Shown here: piece after piece, positions 13,813-20,924 of the stretch
How positions within the stretch are numbered: position 1 is the stretch's first letter
Layout of the letters: every line of letters begins with the position of its first letter
Source of the DNA: Escherichia coli
GTDB taxonomy: Bacteria > Pseudomonadota > Gammaproteobacteria > Enterobacterales > Enterobacteriaceae
DNA: 64,000 nucleotides
Assembly: GCF_003790525.1 (NCBI RefSeq)
Contig: NZ_CP033635.1
Reading direction: 5' to 3' (one strand)
Position numbers and translations under genes: made by a program
Notes under the pieces: model-generated
What the model was told of the DNA's origin: nothing
Seen by the model: the letters and a program-made list of their open reading frames with translations, nothing else
The model's database searches: none

Positions 13813-14910
13813 CAGGTGTAAGCTCCGTCTGTGACGTCTGGTGATAGTTGTCCAGTCTGGTAACAATAGCGTCCATCTATACAGATGGACGCGAATGATG
13901 AATTTTCAGACAACAAGATATTGATGGTTTTCGTTTTTATCTGCCCGACGCATTACGTCTAATATTCGAAGAACAATTATCTGTCTAGTTAATCGCTCAT
14001 CAGTCAGGGCTAAGTCATTTCACCATCACGATTTTTTTAACTATTACCCGAATGAGCAAAGTGAGGATGATGCCATGACGCAGGTCAGAGCGACCAGCAC
14101 CGCGACAATTAATAAAACAGGAAGGCTGCGCGTTTCAGACAGTGATGTCAACATAAACTATCAGTAACGTTAACTGCATCAGAAGCACAAGTATGGATTT
14201 TACCATTGTGCAGAACGACTTGCCCATGGGAAATAATAAATTTAATAAAAAAAGAAAGATATGGTTGCAAATATTATAATATCCCGGGCAACGATCCTGA
14301 TTTTCTCAATACATGTTTTCCTCACGTATTTGTTCTTCAAAGAGCAATCAGCATCTGTTACTGAATGGTTGTTATGAGCATTAAAAGAATAACGGGAAGT
14401 CGGTGACGTGGGGATATGTCGCGTGTTGAATTATACAAAGGGCCGACATCTTCATGGTGTCGGCCAGTCATAAGTGCCAGATATTAACCGTCAGTTACAG
14501 GGGGTAACCGCAGGAAACAGGCTACGCTCCGGGTAACGGGTTATCAATAGTTATTTATTTACTTAAATTCAGTGATTTTGTTCTGTATCATTGCGCTTTC
14601 TTACTGGTATAAATAATGATCGATTGATTTTCGCATGAGCATCAGAATTTGTCGTAATTTGAGGTCCAGGTGCTGTACATACAGGAATATGGTTCTGTCA
14701 GCGGTAGATTGCCGTTGCTGAGCAGAATGTTCAGGCTGGATGGTGAGATTACAGCTGATATTGCTGTGCTGATGGCAGAATGGTAAACGTTAAGTGCGCG
14801 TTCCCGGCAATGAAGGCAAACACGTCATGACAGCAACGCAAAATAAACCAGGAACGCGCGGTATTTTTTATCCCGAATGAAAGCGATTGTCCATATCCGG
14901 TAATAAATAT

Positions 14911-15162
14911 TCAGCAGTATGTAAAGTGCGGTTTGCCCGGTTCTGGTGGAAGGGGCTCCAGATACACATCATCAACAAACACACACGGGAATTTATCCAC
15001 CGGGCAGCCTGCACGGTCAGCCATATCCTGCAGCGTCACACTGTGCTTCGCGACATCAATAAACACAACATCCGGTTCCATTTCATCGGGGATTCGGGTT
15101 GCGTGATGCATAATGCGATGGACTGAAGGGCAGTGACGGTAACCAAAAACACGTATACGCAT
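14911..15162 (-). CDS. small hypothetical protein (83 aa), possibly thioredoxin/glutaredoxin-fold
   Basis: Strong AGGAGG SD 7 nt upstream of ATG; fold assignment speculative (MRIRVFGYRHCP...). Confidence 0.4.
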   Translation of the reverse strand: MRIRVFGYRHCPSVHRIMHHATRIPDEMEPDVVFIDVAKHSVTLQDMADRAGCPVDKFPCVFVDDVYLEPLPPEPGKPHFTYC

Positions 15163-15485
15163 GATGTACCTCCTGGTTGCAGGGTGACTGTATCATCAGA
15201 CCTTATCATGCGTTTAAAAAATGTACTGTAACTCACATTTTTTGGTAAGACGGTGGCTATTACTGCAAATGATGATGGCTCAGTTTTTATTTTTTATTCA
15301 ATATTTTCATGTTGTTATTGTTATTTTGTTTGTTCATACCCTGTGTGGTTCCCCGTTCTTTACATTCAGGCACTTCCGTTTCCTTTAACGTTTTCGTTAC
15401 TCTCTGAAGCTTGTGGTATCTGTGATTACTGATGCCTGCCGTCATACTGCGAAATACCGGATATCAGACCGTGGAGGATTCTGCC

Positions 15486-16058
15486 ATGCAACGCTGGTTT
15501 CTGCCTTTTCTTGCGTCTCTGTTGCTGTTACAGGGTTGTGTTGCCGCTGCGCTGGTCGGTACGGCTGCTGTGGGTACTAAAGTGTCAGTGGATCCCCGAA
15601 GTGCGGGAACGCAGATTGATGATGAAATTCTGGAAGCAAGGGTCAGCCGTGCGCTGTCGAAGGACTCACAACTCAGGGGTGATGCGCGAATTATCGTCAC
15701 AGCATACCAGGGCACTGTACTGCTGACAGGGCAGGTACCAGACCGTAGTGCAGGTGAAAGAGCCCGTCAGATTGCAGATGGTGTTGAGGGGACTGTGCAG
15801 GTATGGAATGAAATAAGGACGGGAAAACCACTCCGTGCTGATAAAACAACCACTGATGCCTGGCTGACCACAAAAATCCGGGCACAGTTACTGAAGAGCA
15901 GCCGGGTGAAACTGTCAGATGTAAAGGTACTGACGGAGAATGGTGAAGTCTTTCTTATGGGGAGAGTTACAGAGAAGGAAGGACAGGCTGCTGCAGATAT
16001 CGCCAGTCGCGTGGCGGGGGTGAAACACGTCATCACCGCATTCAGTTATATACGATGA
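15486..16058 (+). CDS. BON-domain lipoprotein, paralogue of DolP (YraP)
   Basis: Lipobox LLLLQGC, two BON-like segments, strong resemblance to YraP (LQGCVAAA.VGTAAVGTK...DPRS.GTQ.DD); GGAGGA SD before the internal ATG at 15486. Confidence 0.75.
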   Translation: MQRWFLPFLASLLLLQGCVAAALVGTAAVGTKVSVDPRSAGTQIDDEILEARVSRALSKDSQLRGDARIIVTAYQGTVLLTGQVPDRSAGERARQIADGVEGTVQVWNEIRTGKPLRADKTTTDAWLTTKIRAQLLKSSRVKLSDVKVLTENGEVFLMGRVTEKEGQAAADIASRVAGVKHVITAFSYIR

Positions 16059-16105
16059 GTATGGAGAGCCCGTTCGTTCGGGCTCTGTATTTATCTTCCC
16101 CCCGT

Positions 16106-16459
16106 TCATCCCTGGCGTTGCCAGGTGGCACTTCCGTTCTTACAGTCAACGCGCACACGATACTGAATATCTGCTTTCTTTCCACGGGCAGTGAGATGCA
16201 CAGTGATGACATTATCACCTTTATTTACCGGCTCACGAAGATTCACCCAGACAACGGGACGCTGCTGACCGAGAATTTCCTGGTCATCTTTCCACTGAAA
16301 CACCTGTTTCTGGAGATAGTCCCGTTTGACGCTGGCTGCAACAGTCGATGCTTCCTGTCCTTCACATCGTGGAAAACTGACGGTTCTGTTTTTTTCAGCG
16401 GCCAGTGATGATGCACAGATACCGAAGATGAGCAGAATGGAAGAGAGTGCTTTGTTCAT
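16106..16459 (-). CDS. secreted hypothetical protein (117 aa, signal peptide)
   Basis: N-terminal signal peptide MNKALSSILLIFGICASSLAA; GGAGGA SD upstream. Confidence 0.45.
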   Translation of the reverse strand: MNKALSSILLIFGICASSLAAEKNRTVSFPRCEGQEASTVAASVKRDYLQKQVFQWKDDQEILGQQRPVVWVNLREPVNKGDNVITVHLTARGKKADIQYRVRVDCKNGSATWQRQG

Positions 16460-16773
16460 TTACAGGTCCTCCACAGGGGATAGTTTCATTGAGGAGTTAC
16501 ATCTTAACAACATAAAACAGCATTTCCTGTAACAATCCTCACATAACTTCTTATCCCGTCACTTCCCGTTTCACATGGGCAGCATAGCCTGTTTTTTAAC
16601 CCGTTTTTCAGTCATTTCCATAAACAAATCTTCGCTGACGATAAATCTTTTTTCTGTTTAACGATCGATTTTGTCGATCGATATGATATGTATAATTCAT
16701 TTTACCAATGAGAAATCCATCTTAAAATTGGACAAATTCATATGTCTGAAGGAAACATCAGGAGAGGTGGATT

Positions 16774-17523
16774 GTGAAAAAGTTACTGGCACTCACTGCG
16801 GTAGCTGCGCTTACCGGCACGTTTTCAACGCTGGCGCTGGCAGATGCGGATAAAACCGGGTTCTATATCACGGGTAAGGCTGGTGCATCTGTTATCACTC
16901 AGGATAATCAGCGTTTTAGTCAGGACTTTGGTGATGTTGTTTATAAGTATAAAGGCGGTGACAAGAGCGATACGGTTTTTGGCGCCGGCCTTGCGGTGGG
17001 ATATGACTTTTATCAGCACTACAATGTACCTGTTCGCACGGAAGTTGAATTCTATGGTCGCGGCTCTGCGAATTCCCGCTATACACTGGATACATGGGAG
17101 TCCCCGTCTGGAGATAATGGTTGGAAGGAAGACACACAAAACAGGCTCAGCGTGAATACCCTGATGGTGAGCACGTATTATGATTTCAGAAACAGCAGTG
17201 CTTTCACTCCGTGGGTATCAGCCGGACTGGGTTATGCGCGGGTACATCATAAGGCAACATACACCGATACCACCTGGCATAAATCAGGTGAAGTAAGTGA
17301 TGCTTCTTCATTACATTACTCGGGATATGATAACAATTTCGCATGGAGCCTTGGTGTTGGCGTGAAATATGATGTCACCCCGGATTTCAGTCTTGACCTT
17401 GCTTATCGCTATCTTGATGCAGGTGATTCAACCCTGACGTATAAAGACGGGCAGGATACATATAAATCCTCTGTTGATGTCAGAAGTAACGAATTTACGT
17501 TAGGCGCTACATACAGCTTCTGA
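16774..17523 (+). CDS. outer-membrane beta-barrel protein (249 aa)
   Basis: Signal peptide ending ALA-DA, alternating aromatic/hydrophilic strands, C-terminal ...TYSF; GTG start with GGAGAGG SD. Confidence 0.6.
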   Translation: MKKLLALTAVAALTGTFSTLALADADKTGFYITGKAGASVITQDNQRFSQDFGDVVYKYKGGDKSDTVFGAGLAVGYDFYQHYNVPVRTEVEFYGRGSANSRYTLDTWESPSGDNGWKEDTQNRLSVNTLMVSTYYDFRNSSAFTPWVSAGLGYARVHHKATYTDTTWHKSGEVSDASSLHYSGYDNNFAWSLGVGVKYDVTPDFSLDLAYRYLDAGDSTLTYKDGQDTYKSSVDVRSNEFTLGATYSF

Positions 17524-17735: not shown

Positions 17736-18089
17736 ATGGGATTTTGGGATGCTATAATGGGATTCGGTAAGCTTGCTTCTAATGCTGCTGCTGAAACGAT
17801 GAAAAAAGTCAATTTCAATGTGTGGGATAAAATAAAATCATCTCCGGTAGAAAGAATTAACGATTTTTATAACCAAAATAATACATCTGAGTATAATCGG
17901 CCAGCATACAGAGGATTGGCTATTGCTGCTCTATGTTTTAGGGGGGATTGGAGCGGGGAGCGTTTATGGCGTGAAGATCAGGAGGCTGCTAATTGGTTAA
18001 AGAATTTTAGAATAAAAATTTCACTGGATACATGTGATTCTGCAGATGAACTACGTAAAATAATCGATCGTCTTACAGAACTGAATTGA
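17736..18089 (+). CDS. hypothetical protein A (117 aa, soluble, no recognised domain)
   Basis: ORF with AAGGTGA SD; AT-rich; first of three co-oriented genes. Confidence 0.5.
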   Translation: MGFWDAIMGFGKLASNAAAETMKKVNFNVWDKIKSSPVERINDFYNQNNTSEYNRPAYRGLAIAALCFRGDWSGERLWREDQEAANWLKNFRIKISLDTCDSADELRKIIDRLTELN

Positions 18090-18460: not shown

Positions 18461-19117
18461 ATGACTGATAATGAAAATATTCTCACACCATCAAAAATCA
18501 TAAAATTTCTGGATTACGCTTATGAAAAATCCATCGATGGTATTGGTATCCCGGGGATAGATACGGCACATAGTCTTGCGGAAAGTTATCTGAAAACGGG
18601 TAGTAGTTTAAAAGAACAGATAAATAGCCTTATTCGATGGCAGAATACCAAGTCTGCCACATCAGGTTTTCTTACTGGTCTTGGAGGAATTATTACATTA
18701 CCAGTAACTATACCGACCAATATTTCAAGTGTCCTTTTCATTCAGGTCAGGATGGTAGCATCTATTGCGATCATGTGTGGTCAGGATATTCGTGATGATA
18801 AAGTCAGAACTATTGTTTATACCTGTCTTGTAGGTAATGCTGCGAAAGATATTTTGAAGGAAGCAGGAATTCAGATAGGACAAAGGTTGACAACAAATGC
18901 AATTAGATGTATTAGCAAAGAAATTATTGTAAAGATAAATAAGGCTGTCGGTTTCAGACTGCTTACAAAAACAGGTGCTACTGGTGTTATTAATATGTCA
19001 AAGCTTGTTCCTGTTGTAGGAGGAATCGTTGGTGGTAGTTTTGATGCGATAACAACCAACATCGTTGGTAATTATGCCAGAGATACATTCCTGAGTTTGA
19101 TTGATAATGATTTATAA
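18461..19117 (+). CDS. hypothetical protein C (218 aa) with C-terminal glycine-zipper-like segment; possibly EcsC-family-like
   Basis: ORF; Gly-rich segment VVGGIVGGSFDAITTNIVGNYA; EcsC resemblance is from memory and unverified. Confidence 0.5.
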   Translation: MTDNENILTPSKIIKFLDYAYEKSIDGIGIPGIDTAHSLAESYLKTGSSLKEQINSLIRWQNTKSATSGFLTGLGGIITLPVTIPTNISSVLFIQVRMVASIAIMCGQDIRDDKVRTIVYTCLVGNAAKDILKEAGIQIGQRLTTNAIRCISKEIIVKINKAVGFRLLTKTGATGVINMSKLVPVVGGIVGGSFDAITTNIVGNYARDTFLSLIDNDL

Positions 19118-19516: not shown

Positions 19517-20710
19517 TTATTTCGTTTTTACGTTTTTCTCCATAAGTGAATCAATGTAATCAGCGTACCACTGCATCATTTCACGACGTCCATCCAGATA
19601 TTGCGCATGGTTATAAGTGCCACGCATGACGTTTTTATCAACATGAGCAAGCTGGAGTTCAATCCAGGCTGAGCTGAAATCATGGTCATGGAGAATGGTG
19701 CTGAAGGTATGACGAAATCCGTGGGCTGTTGTCAGGGCATGCCAGCCTGACTGCTCAAGGAATTCATTGATACACTTGCGGTTTCGCGGGAGATCTTTTC
19801 TGAATGCACCAGGAATAATAAAGGCGGAATTACGCGATTCAGTGCGTGTTTTTATCTCCTCCAGTAACGCCAGTACCTGGCGTGAAAGCGGCACAACGTG
19901 CGGTCGTCGCATTTTCATTCTTTCTTTCGGAATAACCCACAGGGCCTCCGTGAAATTAATTTCGTCCCAGGTTGCCAGTCGCAGTTCTCCGGTGCGAACA
20001 GCAGTCAGAACCAGCATCTGCGTTGCCAGCGACATCAGATTTTCGGATGCCGTTATCTGATGCATGAAAGCTCCCATCTGTTCTTCAGAAAGCGTCCTGC
20101 GCTGTTGTTTTTCAGGAGGAAGCAGTACCCCGCTGAGTGTCGATGCCGGATTAACGGTAGCACGTCCTGTTGCTATGGCATAATCAAAAACCTGCGCACA
20201 GAGCTGGCGTGTTTTACGCAGTGCTTCAAGTTTTCCCTGTTCTTCTATAGTCCTCAGAACGTTCAGTATTTCCATGGGGCGGATCCCGGTCACAGGACGG
20301 TTTCCAAGAGCAGGGAAAACATGATTTTCAAGTCTTGCACGCTGATCTGCCTGGTAACCTGTTGTCCATCGACGTGCCATATGGGTAAGCAGCTCCTCTG
20401 CAATGGTGCGAAATGTGCAGGCCATACTTTCCCTGATGGCAAGTTTTCGCGCCTGTTTTTCATACGACGGATCTTTACCTTCAGCCAGAAGTTTCCGTGC
20501 TTCATCCCGCTTCTGACGAGCCTGAGCCAGTGATATGTCAGGATAGACACCAATCACCAGTTTCTTTTCCTTACCGGCAAAGCGGTACTTCAGATTCCAG
20601 TAACGGGCACCGGATTTTTTGACAAGAAGATAAAGGCCCTGACCGTCAGAAAGTTTGTAATCCCTGTCAGCAGGTTTAGCCGACTCAATTTGTCGAACAG
20701 TAAGTGGCAT
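19517..20710 (-). CDS. tyrosine recombinase, P4-type phage/island integrase (397 aa)
   Basis: Full-length ORF with typical P4-family N-terminus (MPLTVRQIESAKPADRDYKLSDGQGLYLLV) and catalytic C-terminal region (HGFRHTFST...). Confidence 0.9.
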   Translation of the reverse strand: MPLTVRQIESAKPADRDYKLSDGQGLYLLVKKSGARYWNLKYRFAGKEKKLVIGVYPDISLAQARQKRDEARKLLAEGKDPSYEKQARKLAIRESMACTFRTIAEELLTHMARRWTTGYQADQRARLENHVFPALGNRPVTGIRPMEILNVLRTIEEQGKLEALRKTRQLCAQVFDYAIATGRATVNPASTLSGVLLPPEKQQRRTLSEEQMGAFMHQITASENLMSLATQMLVLTAVRTGELRLATWDEINFTEALWVIPKERMKMRRPHVVPLSRQVLALLEEIKTRTESRNSAFIIPGAFRKDLPRNRKCINEFLEQSGWHALTTAHGFRHTFSTILHDHDFSSAWIELQLAHVDKNVMRGTYNHAQYLDGRREMMQWYADYIDSLMEKNVKTK

Positions 20711-20924
20711 GATGTTACCCCTGCAATGTAGCCCCCATAATAGCCCCCAAAATCATCTTGATGTTCATGGAATATGATTTACCCCCAGAGAGAAGGAATT
20801 TCTTATGATACCTTATTTCAAAGGGGGTTAAAGGGGGAGGGGTTATCTCTGTTGAAATCAGTTGATATCAATAGATCCTCCCCAGAGGGGCGAGGGGACC
20901 GTTCGAACTCGTATTTGACTTTGT

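What the first reader, a model, noticed from the sequence alone, without database searches (positions are those of the whole stretch)
14911..17523. Cluster of four small envelope proteins, including an extra DolP (YraP) paralogue
Four alternating-strand genes with strong SD sequences encode a small possibly thioredoxin-fold protein, a BON-domain lipoprotein strongly resembling the core protein DolP, a secreted 117-aa protein and a 249-aa outer-membrane beta-barrel. A second DolP-like lipoprotein carried on an island next to an OMP is unusual and could indicate an accessory outer-membrane maintenance or stress function. A direct repeat of the palindromic octamer TCGATCGA (16662-16682) lies in the divergent promoter region between the secreted-protein and OMP genes and could be a shared operator.
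Basis: partly seen in the sequence, partly recalled or inferred. Interest (0 to 1): 0.4.

Follow-up and report, generated by a model that had tools for sequence, protein, structure and literature searches.

The report
Mosaic island cargo: spare DolP, YebF, adhesin
Four real genes on an E. coli genomic island are diverged spare copies of the core genes grxA, dolP and yebF plus a Tia-like adhesin; they are separable cargo rather than one machine, and the flagged repeat is a conserved GATC box typical of this adhesin family's promoters.

Summary
The four ORFs exist as described, on alternating strands with good Shine-Dalgarno sites. They lie at the integrase end of an E. coli genomic island inserted beside lptG.

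- **14911-15162(-)**: an 83-aa cytoplasmic, monothiol (CPSV) glutaredoxin-1-like protein, so not an envelope protein.
- **15486-16058(+)**: a genuine extra DolP lipoprotein, 63% identical to core DolP. The lipobox, both BON domains and the lipid-binding Trp are kept.
- **16106-16459(-)**: a YebF paralogue, 51% identical to core YebF.
- **16774-17523(+)**: a Tia/Hra-family adhesin barrel, 76% identical to Tia.

The full cluster occurs in only 14 of 5426 complete E. coli genomes, mostly from birds. It is not a fixed unit. grx'+dolP' is a 1.2-kb indel. yebF' elsewhere lies next to a dead Hra remnant without dolP'. Hra genes occur in about 1800 genomes without either. Related DolP and Grx-like paralogues sit separately on ICE-like elements.

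The "TCGATCGA repeat" is really CGATCGAT twice. It belongs to the adhesin promoter and is not a shared operator. The same 20-mer lies upstream of Hra-family genes of 55-99.6% identity. It has the GATCG-N7-CGATC layout of the agn43 and gtr OxyR/Dam switch sites. That is the most interesting lead, and it is untested.

Verdict: ordinary mosaic cargo, new members of known families.

The parts
14911..15162 (-). grx': an 83-aa cytoplasmic glutaredoxin-1-like protein with a monothiol active site C11-P-S-V, a retained cis-Pro (F58-P59) and a Pro-rich C-terminal tail ending in Cys83. The window copy is intact.
   Evidence: It matches E. coli Grx1 (1EGO/1GRX) at E=1.4e-5, aligning CPSV to CPYC. Pfam Glutaredoxin scores 19.6 against a cutoff of 22.9, and NCBIfam GrxA scores 33 against 84. 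The AF2 model has pLDDT 67 and its top Foldseek hit is 1GRX at probability 0.99. 83-aa homologues of 61-70% identity keep C11 and the PLPPxPG..TYC tail. The CM2/HCM/LH50-c copies are frameshifted to 97 aa.
15163..15485 (.). AT-rich divergent intergenic region between grx' and dolP'.
   Evidence: Read from the sequence. Neither the consensus sigma-70 scan nor a crude sigma-E scan found a promoter-like site here.
15486..16058 (+). dolP': a 190-aa accessory DolP (YraP) outer-membrane lipoprotein with lipobox LLLLQG-C, two BON domains and the BON2 alpha-1 residues W126/K130/R132/L136 retained.
   Evidence: NF008247 scores 279 bits against a cutoff of 184, and Pfam BON matches in two stretches. It is 63% identical to core DolP. 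90 of 114 columns that are at least 95% conserved in core DolPs are kept; residues 120-126 have diverged. pN/pS is 0.14-0.19. It forms a neighbour-joining clade with ICE-borne E. coli DolP paralogues.
16065..16086 (.). G+C-rich hairpin between the convergent dolP' and yebF' genes; a likely shared terminator.
   Evidence: Terminator-like site with 8 pairs, 6 of them G-C.
16106..16459 (-). yebF': a 117-aa YebF paralogue with a Sec signal peptide (…SSLA/AEKN, my reading of the sequence) and both conserved cysteines.
   Evidence: PF13995 at 1.3e-27 and NF041240 at 117.7 bits against a cutoff of 110. PDB YebF 2LQV matches at 1.2e-27, while the colicin M immunity protein matches only at 0.012. It is 51% identical to K-12 YebF. 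pN/pS is 0.12-0.30.
16389..16395 (-). A7 tract (T7 on the + strand) at yebF' codons 22-24. The window copy is in frame.
   Evidence: Relatives carry A6 (L009/L010, which also have a TAG stop) or A8 (L012). Both lengths are out of frame.
16597..16676 (.). Segment absent from the yebF' lineages that have lost the OMP. It marks where similarity to those lineages breaks.
   Evidence: Similarity of the window to L009 and L012 stops at 16596 and resumes at 16677.
16639..16644 (+). Conserved CGATAA (family consensus TTCGATAAGAAA). It resembles the H-NS high-affinity motif TCGATAAATT.
   Evidence: It is invariant in five divergent Hra-family upstream regions and conserved in 45 promoter haplotypes. 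The H-NS motif comparison is from my own knowledge.
16663..16682 (+). GATC box GATCGATTTTGTCGATCGAT: two Dam sites 13 bp apart inside an OxyR-half-site-like dyad ATCGnTnnnnnCGAT. A third GATC found in relatives is GATA here (16684-16687).
   Evidence: 18 of 20 positions are invariant, against 56 of 306 in the rest of the upstream region. The exact 20-mer lies 92-151 nt upstream of Hra-family OMPs of 55-99.6% identity in 78 of 120 metagenome loci. It shares 21 of 26 nt with agn43 GATC-II/III and has the same GATCG-N7-CGATC layout as both gtr P22 pairs.
16701..16728 (+). Conserved candidate promoter of the adhesin gene: -35 TTTACC, a 16-nt spacer, and -10 TAAAAT.
   Evidence: Found by the consensus scan at 9 of 12 matches. 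It is conserved across Hra-family upstream regions, including L018, which lacks the GATC box. The transcription start is inferred, not shown.
16774..17523 (+). A 249-aa Hra/Tia-family outer-membrane beta-barrel adhesin/invasin with a GTG start and a signal peptide.
   Evidence: It is 76% identical to Tia over its full length, with differences concentrated in short blocks that I take to be surface loops. Pfam OMP_b-brl matches at 4.8e-17. pN/pS is 0.24.
17736..18089 (+). 117-aa hypothetical protein conserved in the same block.
   Evidence: It has no Pfam, PADLOC or PHROG hit. It is present in CM2, HCM-27C-1 and CFSAN061770.
18461..19117 (+). EcsC-family protein that matches the phage-defence candidate PDC-S29.
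   Evidence: Pfam EcsC at 8e-12 and PADLOC PDC-S29 at 2.4e-86.
19517..20710 (-). Tyrosine integrase with an Arm-binding domain at the island/core junction. Core sequence (lptG) starts near 20878.
   Evidence: Pfam Arm-DNA-bind_3, Phage_int_M and Phage_integrase. Identity to SMS-3-5 is 100% from window position 20878 onward. The window contains no tRNA gene.

Best explanation
This is the integrase-proximal cargo end of a mosaic E. coli genomic island inserted beside lptG. It is made of separable pieces rather than one system.

Piece 1 (14870-16054) carries two genes. grx' is a cytoplasmic Grx1-like thiol protein that has lost the second active-site cysteine. dolP' is an accessory DolP.

Inferred mechanism for dolP': it is lipidated at Cys18 and sorted to the inner leaflet of the outer membrane. 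There it binds anionic phospholipid through the BON2 alpha-1 helix (W126), as core DolP does, and adds DolP-type buffering of outer-membrane and BAM stress. It belongs to a small clade of DolP copies that travel on mobile elements.

Piece 2 is an older divergent pair, yebF' and an Hra/Tia-family adhesin gene. YebF' is exported by Sec and probably released through porins like YebF. The barrel is inferred to act as a surface adhesin, invasin or autoaggregation factor, like Tia, Hra1, Hek and Hes.

Each gene appears to have its own promoter. The adhesin promoter carries the family's conserved GATC box, so adhesin expression is probably sensitive to Dam methylation.

Shown here: gene identities, intactness, purifying selection, modularity and conservation of the box. 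Inferred: localisation, lipid binding, adhesion and regulation.
For: - **Identities:**
- **Island setting:** the flank from 20878 is 100% E. coli core and an integrase sits at the junction. The same block lies next to zntA in another strain.
- **Rarity:** 14 of 5426 genomes carry the full cluster and 19 carry this dolP'.
- **Modularity:** grx'+dolP' is precisely absent in the ynjA-island lineage, where the flanks abut. LH50-c carries grx'-dolP'-yebF' followed by LPS-modification genes. GF4 keeps a truncated dolP' without yebF' or the OMP. ICE-borne DolP and Grx-like homologues are not adjacent to each other or to yebF' or an Hra OMP.
- **The yebF'/Hra pairing is older:** a 75%-identical remnant of an Hra 5' end sits next to yebF' in both diverged lineages.
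- **Functionality:** pN/pS is 0.12-0.30 for dolP', yebF', the OMP and grx'. DolP key residues are retained.
- **GATC box:**
Against: - No expression, localisation or phenotype data exist for any of these genes.
- Intact yebF' was seen only in the window-type block: with an intact OMP, or in one genome an OMP cut by IS21. The three copies examined beside an old OMP remnant (L009, L010, L012) are frameshifted or stopped. That pattern could hint at functional coupling of yebF' and the OMP.
- Among the 19 genomes with this dolP', one search finds yebF' beside it in 18. The exception, GF4, has dolP' cut by IS1414. Physical linkage within this lineage is therefore strong, although it may only reflect recent common descent at 95-99% identity.
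- The N-terminal part of the DolP lipid-binding helix (G120, E121, S123, N124, T126) has changed, so lipid binding may differ.
- pN/pS values rest on only 2-18 substitutions per gene.
Confidence: 0.7

Rival explanations
1. One reading: the four genes form one accessory outer-membrane maintenance or stress module. DolP' assists assembly of the island's own barrel, and the CGATCGAT repeat acts as a shared operator for yebF' and the OMP.
For: All four are tightly packed, intact and under purifying selection in the window. They stay together at 97% identity in 14 genomes and at two chromosomal sites. Core DolP is known to support BamA folding (PMC8081527).
Against: The genes are separable in other genomes. 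One of the four is cytoplasmic. The repeat is a general feature of Hra-family promoters that have no yebF' nearby. No sigma-E-like promoter was found. About 1800 genomes carry Hra-family barrels without any extra DolP.
Confidence: 0.08
2. yebF' and the Hra-family barrel are a functional pair, for example a secreted YebF-like protein that needs or modulates the small barrel. grx'+dolP' would then be a later insertion.
For: Divergent adjacency is kept in both yebF' lineages, with yebF' at 84-89% and the OMP 5' remnant at 75% identity. Intact yebF' was found only in the window-type block, where the barrel is intact or only recently cut by IS21. Where only an old remnant survives, yebF' is frameshifted or stopped. 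From my own knowledge (Prehna et al., Structure 2012), YebF export involves OmpF/OmpC and was reported to depend on OmpX, another small barrel. PMC8619257 repeats the porin part.
Against: The association is one-sided: 1817 genomes have Hra genes and only 51 have yebF'. The L009 island is decaying generally, and its neighbours are also pseudogenes. The A6/A8 frameshifts could be homopolymer sequencing errors.
Confidence: 0.15
3. The GATC box is an H-NS nucleation site or another transcription-factor site, and the GATC motifs are incidental. There would then be no methylation-dependent switching.
For: TCGAT is the core of the H-NS high-affinity motif TCGATAAATT (my own knowledge). A second conserved TTCGATAAGAAA lies 24 nt upstream. 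The region is AT-rich, horizontally acquired DNA. A convincing, conserved second OxyR half-site was not found.
Against: The GATCG-N7-CGATC layout and 13-bp spacing are exactly those of the proven OxyR/Dam sites of agn43 and gtr. A third and often a fourth GATC follow: 41 of 45 haplotypes have at least three. An exact 20-mer is kept while the proteins diverge to 55% identity.
Confidence: 0.3
4. dolP' and/or yebF' are mobile-element self-defence or exclusion factors, for example blocking a BamA- or porin-dependent toxin, phage or conjugation step, by analogy with Cmi, which has a YebF fold.
For: DolP paralogues recur on ICE-like elements, in one case near a CBASS locus. The EcsC-like neighbour matches defence candidate PDC-S29. 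The YebF fold is shared with colicin M immunity.
Against: PADLOC and PHROG give no hit for either protein. The Cmi match is only E=0.012, against 1e-27 for YebF. No toxin gene is adjacent. DolP faces the periplasm.
Confidence: 0.05

Closest known systems
DolP (YraP), the core dual-BON outer-membrane lipoprotein of E. coli (structure and function: PMC7806268, PMC8081527)
   Same: It passes the NCBIfam equivalog model and has the same length. The lipobox, two BON domains, W127, K131, R133 and L137 equivalents, and 79% of the strongly conserved columns are retained.
   Different: It is only 63% identical and lies on an island instead of in lpoA-yraN-diaA-dolP. The start of the lipid-binding helix has changed from GEASNDT to DKTTTDA. 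It shares 8 derived residues with ICE-borne paralogues. It is present in 0.35% of genomes and always in addition to the core copy.
YebF (PDB 2LQV), the small protein secreted through OmpF/OmpC
   Same: It shares the Pfam YebF family, length, signal peptide and the two disulfide cysteines, and is 51% identical.
   Different: It is an island-borne second copy, divergently paired with an adhesin gene. It misses the PRK13680 cutoff (124 against 147) and only just passes YebF_not_Cmi.
Hra family of adhesins: Tia, Hra1, Hek, Hes, Hra2 (PMC5539235)
   Same: It is 76% identical to Tia, with the same size, barrel family and upstream GATC box and promoter.
   Different: It is a distinct allele found in only 16 complete genomes at 95% identity or more. 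It uses a GTG start and has two rather than three GATC sites. It lacks the phosphoethanolamine-transferase gene that follows many family members. Identity to Hra2 could not be checked.
E. coli glutaredoxin 1 (GrxA, PDB 1EGO/1GRX)
   Same: Residues 2-68 align. The nucleophilic Cys and cis-Pro are kept, and the predicted beta-alpha-beta-alpha-beta core matches.
   Different: The active site is CPSV, not CPYC. The C-terminal beta4-alpha3 with the GG..D glutathione-binding region is replaced by a Pro-rich tail ending in Cys. It scores below both curated cutoffs.
OxyR/Dam epigenetic phase-variation switches: agn43 (Ag43), gtr of phage P22, opvAB (PMC2909390, PMC4856963)
   Same: A pair of GATC sites 13 bp apart sits inside ATCGnTnnnAnCGAT, with 21 of 26 nt identical to agn43 GATC-II/III. 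Further GATC sites lie nearby, and the box sits upstream of a surface or autoaggregation factor gene.
   Different: No well-conserved second half-site was found. If the conserved promoter is the real one, the box is centred near -64 rather than over or downstream of the start as in agn43. No experimental evidence was found in the searched literature.

Membership tests
DolP (NCBIfam NF008247 equivalog) | Whole-protein HMM score above the curated cutoff | tested here: met
   279.2 bits against a cutoff of 184. OsmY scores only 63.7 against 174.
DolP | Lipoprotein signal with lipobox Cys, and no Asp at +2 (outer-membrane sorting) | tested here: met
   The sequence reads LLLLQG-C-VAA, aligned to the core LLLQGCVAA. 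This is a reading of the sequence; no predictor was run.
DolP | Two BON domains | tested here: met
   Pfam BON at 2.8e-34 in two stretches.
DolP | BON2 alpha-1 phospholipid-binding determinants (W127 and L137 critical; G120, S123, T130, S134 intercalating; PMC7806268) | tested here: inconclusive
   The W127, T130, K131, R133 and L137 equivalents are kept. G120 becomes D, E121 K, S123 T, N124 T, T126 A and S134 A.
DolP | Function: restores SDS/vancomycin tolerance of a dolP mutant, localises to the division site, interacts with BamA | not testable with these tools
   Requires experiments.
YebF (Pfam PF13995 / NF041240) | HMM score above the curated cutoffs | tested here: met
   PF13995 scores 96 against 27 and NF041240 scores 117.7 against 110. 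PRK13680 at 124 is below its cutoff of 147.
YebF | Cleavable signal peptide and the conserved cysteine pair | tested here: met
   The alignment to K-12 YebF keeps FP(K/R)CE and VDCK. The signal peptide was read from the sequence.
Colicin M immunity protein (Cmi) | Close sequence similarity to Cmi and an adjacent colicin M gene | tested here: not met
   E=0.012 to 4AEQ/2XGL against 1.2e-27 to YebF. No cma-like gene appears among the neighbours.
Hra family adhesins (Tia/Hra1/Hek/Hes/Hra2) | Full-length sequence similarity to a named member (members share about 65-90% identity; PMC5539235) | tested here: met
   76% identity and 88% positives to RefSeq-annotated Tia over 249 aa.
Hra family adhesins | Adhesion, haemagglutination, autoaggregation or invasion phenotype | not testable with these tools
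   Requires expression in a non-adherent strain.
Glutaredoxin (GrxA) | Curated HMM cutoffs and the CPYC dithiol active site | tested here: not met
   Pfam scores 19.6 against 22.9 and GrxA 33.4 against 84. The motif is CPSV.
Thioredoxin/glutaredoxin fold | beta-alpha-beta-alpha-beta core with an N-terminal active-site Cys and a cis-Pro | tested here: met
   phmmer to 1EGO gives 1.4e-5. The AF2 topology is E-H-E-H-H-E at pLDDT 67. Foldseek's top hit is 1GRX at probability 0.99 and TM 0.51. Confidence is modest.
OxyR/Dam phase-variation switch (agn43/gtr type) | GATC pair 13 bp apart within an OxyR half-site-like dyad in the regulatory region | tested here: met
   GATCGATTTTGTCGATC compares with agn43 GATCGTTTATATCGATC and gtr GATCGCTTGTATCGATC. 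It matches 7 of 10 positions of the half-site consensus, and 8 of 10 in the alleles that have A in place of G at window position 16673.
OxyR/Dam phase-variation switch | Complete OxyR tetramer site (two half-sites about 22 bp apart), conserved | tested here: inconclusive
   The window has a 7-of-10 half-site 22 bp downstream, but it is not conserved in D8 tia (and my own reading).
OxyR/Dam phase-variation switch | Differential GATC methylation and heritable ON/OFF expression dependent on dam and oxyR | not testable with these tools
   Needs methylome data or reporter assays.
Single co-functional gene cluster or operon | Conserved co-occurrence of the components across lineages | tested here: not met
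   The full set occurs in one 97-99%-identical lineage only. The components are found apart elsewhere.

The most novel reading that the evidence does not exclude
The conserved box GATCGATTTTRYCGATCGAT, together with one or two further GATCs, is a previously undescribed Dam-methylation-sensitive switch. It would most likely be read by OxyR or another LysR-type factor, as at agn43 and gtr. It would make Hra-family adhesins (Tia, Hra1, Hek, Hes and this allele, present in about a third of E. coli genomes) phase-variable. The window allele, with only two GATCs and a new TATAAT, would be a variant with altered switching. A separate and less likely reading is that DolP copies carried on islands and ICEs form a mobile 'DolP2' lineage with its own role in envelope resilience.
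Probability: 0.35. Interest if true: 0.55.

Novelty: new member of a known kind. Interest (0 to 1): 0.33.

Why it matters
- **Annotation:** RefSeq names the island copies plainly as "dolP" and "yebF". That hides the fact that they are diverged second copies.
- **DolP biology:** a mobile-element-borne DolP lineage in about 1% of E. coli genomes gives a natural variant set for probing which DolP residues matter. The lipid-binding helix is partly rewritten while W127 is kept.
- **Ecology:** 15 of the 19 carrier genomes come from poultry or wild birds, which may interest people working on avian E. coli.
- **Regulation:** the most useful product is the GATC box. If Hra-family adhesins are Dam/OxyR phase-variable like Ag43, that would explain variable adhesion and autoaggregation phenotypes. 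It can be tested directly with existing methylome data.

Tried and rejected
- **Plasmid carriage of dolP':** the tblastn hits in the plasmid collection are core dolP on mis-labelled chromosome fragments. For example, the Enterobacter "plasmid" shows lpoA-yraN-diaA-dolP.
- **Cmi identity for the 117-aa protein:** rejected.
- **Defence or phage origin of the four genes:** PADLOC and PHROG give no hits, apart from a weak Lom-like match for the barrel.
- **Sigma-E promoter upstream of dolP':** core dolP is sigma-E regulated (my own knowledge). A crude GGAACTT-N15-17-TCAAA/TCTGA scan found none upstream of any of the four genes, although the pattern occurs 73 times in the window overall.
- **tRNA integration site:** the window contains no tRNA gene.
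- **Other species:** the protein searches found this dolP' (97% identity), yebF' and the Grx-like protein only in records named E. coli or left unnamed. The one-genome-per-species scan for the box gave 17 hits. Only 2 of them were upstream of an Hra OMP, and several were chance hits in unrelated phyla.
- **Literature:** searches for DolP paralogues and for hra/tia with GATC, OxyR or Dam found nothing relevant. The original YebF export paper and the Hra2 paper were not in the library.
- **TATAAT at 16692-16697:** it is not conserved (TACAAT in CM2, absent in tia). I therefore prefer the conserved TTTACC/TAAAAT pair as the promoter.


Full report
**Observation.** The window is E. coli chromosome. 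From position 20878 onward it is 100% identical to strain SMS-3-5 (lptG, lptF, pepA, valS). Positions 1 to about 20877 are a mosaic island containing IS66 and IS3 elements, a TonB-dependent receptor, and an M20 peptidase with a family-5 solute-binding protein.

The four ORFs of the finding are all present on alternating strands. Each has a GGAGG-type box 6-8 nt before its start. For the BON gene the sensible start is ATG 15486, giving 190 aa, as in the RefSeq models of relatives. A G+C-rich hairpin at 16065-16086 separates the convergent second and third genes.

**Gene identities.**
1. **14911-15162(-), grx'.** This 83-aa protein has no signal peptide. It aligns to E. coli glutaredoxin 1 over residues 2-68 at E=1.4e-5 against the PDB, with CPSV in place of CPYC and the cis-proline kept. 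It falls below the Pfam and GrxA cutoffs. An AlphaFold model (pLDDT 67) gives a Grx-like core, and its best Foldseek hit is 1GRX at probability 0.99. The C-terminal helix is replaced by a Pro-rich tail ending in Cys. That tail is conserved in 83-aa homologues of 61-70% identity.
2. **15486-16058(+), dolP'.** It passes the DolP equivalog model at 279 bits against a cutoff of 184 and is 63% identical to core DolP. It keeps the lipobox, both BON domains and the W127, K131, R133 and L137 equivalents that PMC7806268 showed to matter for phospholipid binding. The first turn of that helix has changed.
3. **16106-16459(-), yebF'.** It belongs to Pfam YebF at 1e-27, matches the YebF structure 2LQV at 1e-27, and is 51% identical to K-12 YebF with both cysteines kept. 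Similarity to colicin M immunity protein is marginal.

Three adjacent genes are therefore diverged second copies of the core genes grxA, dolP and yebF.

**Are the genes alive?** Comparing the window with the 97%-identical alleles gives pN/pS of 0.14-0.19 for dolP', 0.12-0.30 for yebF', 0.24 for the barrel and 0.29 for grx' (counts are small). The window's grx' is the intact form. The CM2, HCM and LH50-c alleles carry a frameshift that produces a 97-aa product.

**Distribution and context.** The whole cluster at about 97% identity is found in 14 of 5426 complete E. coli genomes, always on chromosomes. Nineteen genomes carry this dolP', while all but two of the 5426 carry a dolP match. Fifteen of the 19 come from chickens, chicken meat or black kites.

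The block integrase-(TPR/ISAs1)-EcsC-hyp117-OMP-yebF'-dolP'-grx'-DoxX-sit lies beside lptG in CM2, as in the window, but beside zntA in HCM-27C-1. Compared with those relatives, the window lacks the TPR/ISAs1 segment and the DoxX-sit segment. The apparent plasmid hits were chromosome fragments.

**Is it one unit?** It is not. Six observations point the same way:
- E. coli DolP paralogues of 65-69% identity to the window copy lie on ICE-like elements carrying a TraI_2 relaxase, PilI and an integrase. They sit next to a DUF465 gene, with no yebF or Hra gene nearby. They form a neighbour-joining clade with the window protein and share eight derived residues with it.
- Grx-like homologues lie elsewhere on ICE-like contigs (TraU, DUF1525), or next to a catalase-peroxidase and sodC.
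- yebF' occurs in 51 genomes. In 33 of them it is an 88.7% variant in an island at ynjA that has no dolP'.
- Direct comparison shows that in that lineage window 14784-14869 abuts 16055 onward. grx'+dolP' (14870-16054) is therefore a discrete 1.18-kb indel, flanked by a short RATGAR microhomology.
- In LH50-c the trio grx'-dolP'-yebF' is followed by a polysaccharide deacetylase, a GT4 glycosyltransferase, cptA and a second lpxM, not by the barrel. In GF4 a truncated dolP' remains, with no yebF' or barrel beside it.
- Hra-family genes occur in 1817 genomes, almost all without yebF' or dolP'.

One link is older than it first appeared. Both diverged yebF' lineages keep a 75%-identical remnant of an Hra gene's promoter and first 40 codons next to yebF'. 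Intact yebF' was seen only in the window-type block, where the barrel is intact or has only recently been cut by IS21. The L009-type copy has an A6 frameshift plus a stop codon. The L012 copy has an A8 tract where the window has A7. This could reflect coupling between the two genes, or simply general decay of that island.

**The repeat.** The repeated unit is CGATCGAT, at 16662-16669 and 16675-16682. Aligning the upstream regions of seven Hra-family genes shows the 20-mer GATCGATTTTRYCGATCGAT to be the one strongly conserved block. Among five divergent genes, 18 of 20 box positions are invariant, against 56 of 306 positions in the rest of the upstream region. Most alleles carry a third GATC 9 bp further on; the window has GATA there.

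In 78 of them the box lies 92-151 nt upstream of an Hra-family barrel whose identity to the window protein ranges from 55% to 99.6%. Among 45 distinct promoter haplotypes, 29 have three GATCs, 12 have four and 4 have two. The box is deleted in the lineage that kept yebF' but lost the barrel. It therefore belongs to the adhesin gene and is not a shared operator.

Conserved along with the box are TTCGATAAGAAA about 24 nt upstream and a promoter-like TTTACC-N16-TAAAAT at 16701-16728. That promoter would place the box near -64.

The box has exactly the GATCG-N7-CGATC layout and 13-bp spacing of the OxyR half-sites that carry the Dam sites of agn43 (21 of 26 nt identical) and of both GATC pairs of phage P22 gtr (PMC2909390). 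I did not find a conserved second half-site. TCGAT is also the core of the H-NS high-affinity motif (my own knowledge). Methylation-dependent switching is therefore a good hypothesis, not a result. No paper in the searched library connects Hra-family genes with GATC, Dam or OxyR. The same box also occurs in Yokenella, Kluyvera, Buttiauxella and an unnamed enterobacterial genome, upstream of unrelated genes.

**Mechanism, with status.**
- *Shown:* identities, intactness, purifying selection, island setting, modular structure and box conservation.
- *Inferred from family knowledge:* DolP' is lipidated, sorted to the outer membrane and binds anionic phospholipid through BON2 alpha-1, adding DolP-type support of the outer membrane and BAM under stress (PMC7806268, PMC8081527). 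YebF' is Sec-exported and probably released through porins (PMC8619257 citing Prehna et al.). The barrel acts as an adhesin, invasin or autoaggregation factor (PMC5539235). Grx' acts as a monothiol redox protein.
- *Recurring neighbours:* sodC, a catalase-peroxidase, DoxX, cytochrome b562, sit genes and LPS-modifying enzymes appear around these genes in related islands. This suggests a loose theme of envelope and oxidative-stress resilience, not a machine.

**Verdict.** The extra DolP is a new member of a known family and belongs to a small mobile lineage. The repeat is the most interesting element, because it is a conserved candidate epigenetic switch site for a widespread adhesin family.

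Noticed in passing
window 18461-19117 (+): The EcsC-family protein two genes downstream of the adhesin matches PADLOC phage-defence candidate PDC-S29 almost end to end (E=2.4e-86). It is conserved next to the integrase in all relatives of the block.
   Followed up: partly
window 16389-16395; L009 9000-9353; L012 8313-8667: A homopolymeric A tract just after the YebF' signal peptide is A7 (in frame) in the window, A6 in the ynjA-island copies and A8 in LH50-c. It could be slipped-strand switching, decay, or homopolymer sequencing error. The A6 copies also carry a stop codon.
   Followed up: partly
L002 7603-8576, L003 6289-7262, L005 7396-8576: A second type of E. coli DolP paralogue (71-75% identical to core DolP) lies on ICE-like elements with a TraI_2 relaxase, UvrD helicase, PilI and integrase. 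It is always just downstream of a 75-aa DUF465 gene, and in L005 it lies near a CBASS-like locus (SMODS, ThiF, JAB, SAVED).
   Followed up: partly
the 19 E. coli genomes (H1-H19): 15 of the 19 genomes that carry this dolP' come from chickens, chicken meat or black kites. One is human and three have no host or a food source recorded. Enrichment against the collection's overall host mix was not computed.
   Followed up: no
L038 4785-4804 (Yokenella regensburgei); also L031, L040, L041: The identical three-GATC box occurs in other Enterobacteriaceae upstream of unrelated genes. In Yokenella these encode two small secreted proteins with no Pfam match. This suggests a portable regulatory site with a wider regulon.
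   Followed up: partly
L012 9516-14309 (E. coli LH50-c): In this relative the adhesin block is replaced by a polysaccharide deacetylase, a GT4 glycosyltransferase, a (pseudo) CptA and a second lpxM. The arrangement resembles the shf-capU-virK-msbB2 locus of virulence plasmids (resemblance recalled from memory). A decayed copy lies next to yebF' in the ynjA island (L009, L010).
   Followed up: no
L007 7877-9379, L015 4876-5244, L017 4879-6378, L018 4849-5376: Hra/Tia-family adhesin genes are very often followed directly by a phosphoethanolamine-transferase gene. The window allele is not.
   Followed up: no
window 19517-20877: The island's tyrosine integrase (Arm-binding type) abuts lptG, and there is no tRNA gene anywhere in the window. 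The same block with a 98%-identical integrase lies next to zntA in strain HCM-27C-1, so the element uses non-tRNA sites or was moved by recombination.
   Followed up: partly
window 14129-14641 and 14792: Compared with CFSAN061770 and CM2, the window has lost sitABCD and DoxX. Window 14129-14641 matches DNA beyond sitD in L014, and similarity to the cluster relatives begins only at 14792.
   Followed up: partly
16 metagenome loci (e.g. L056, L079, L096): In a subset of contigs the best Hra-like match lies about 780-800 nt downstream of the box instead of about 136 nt. This may mean two tandem barrel genes or an inserted gene.
   Followed up: no
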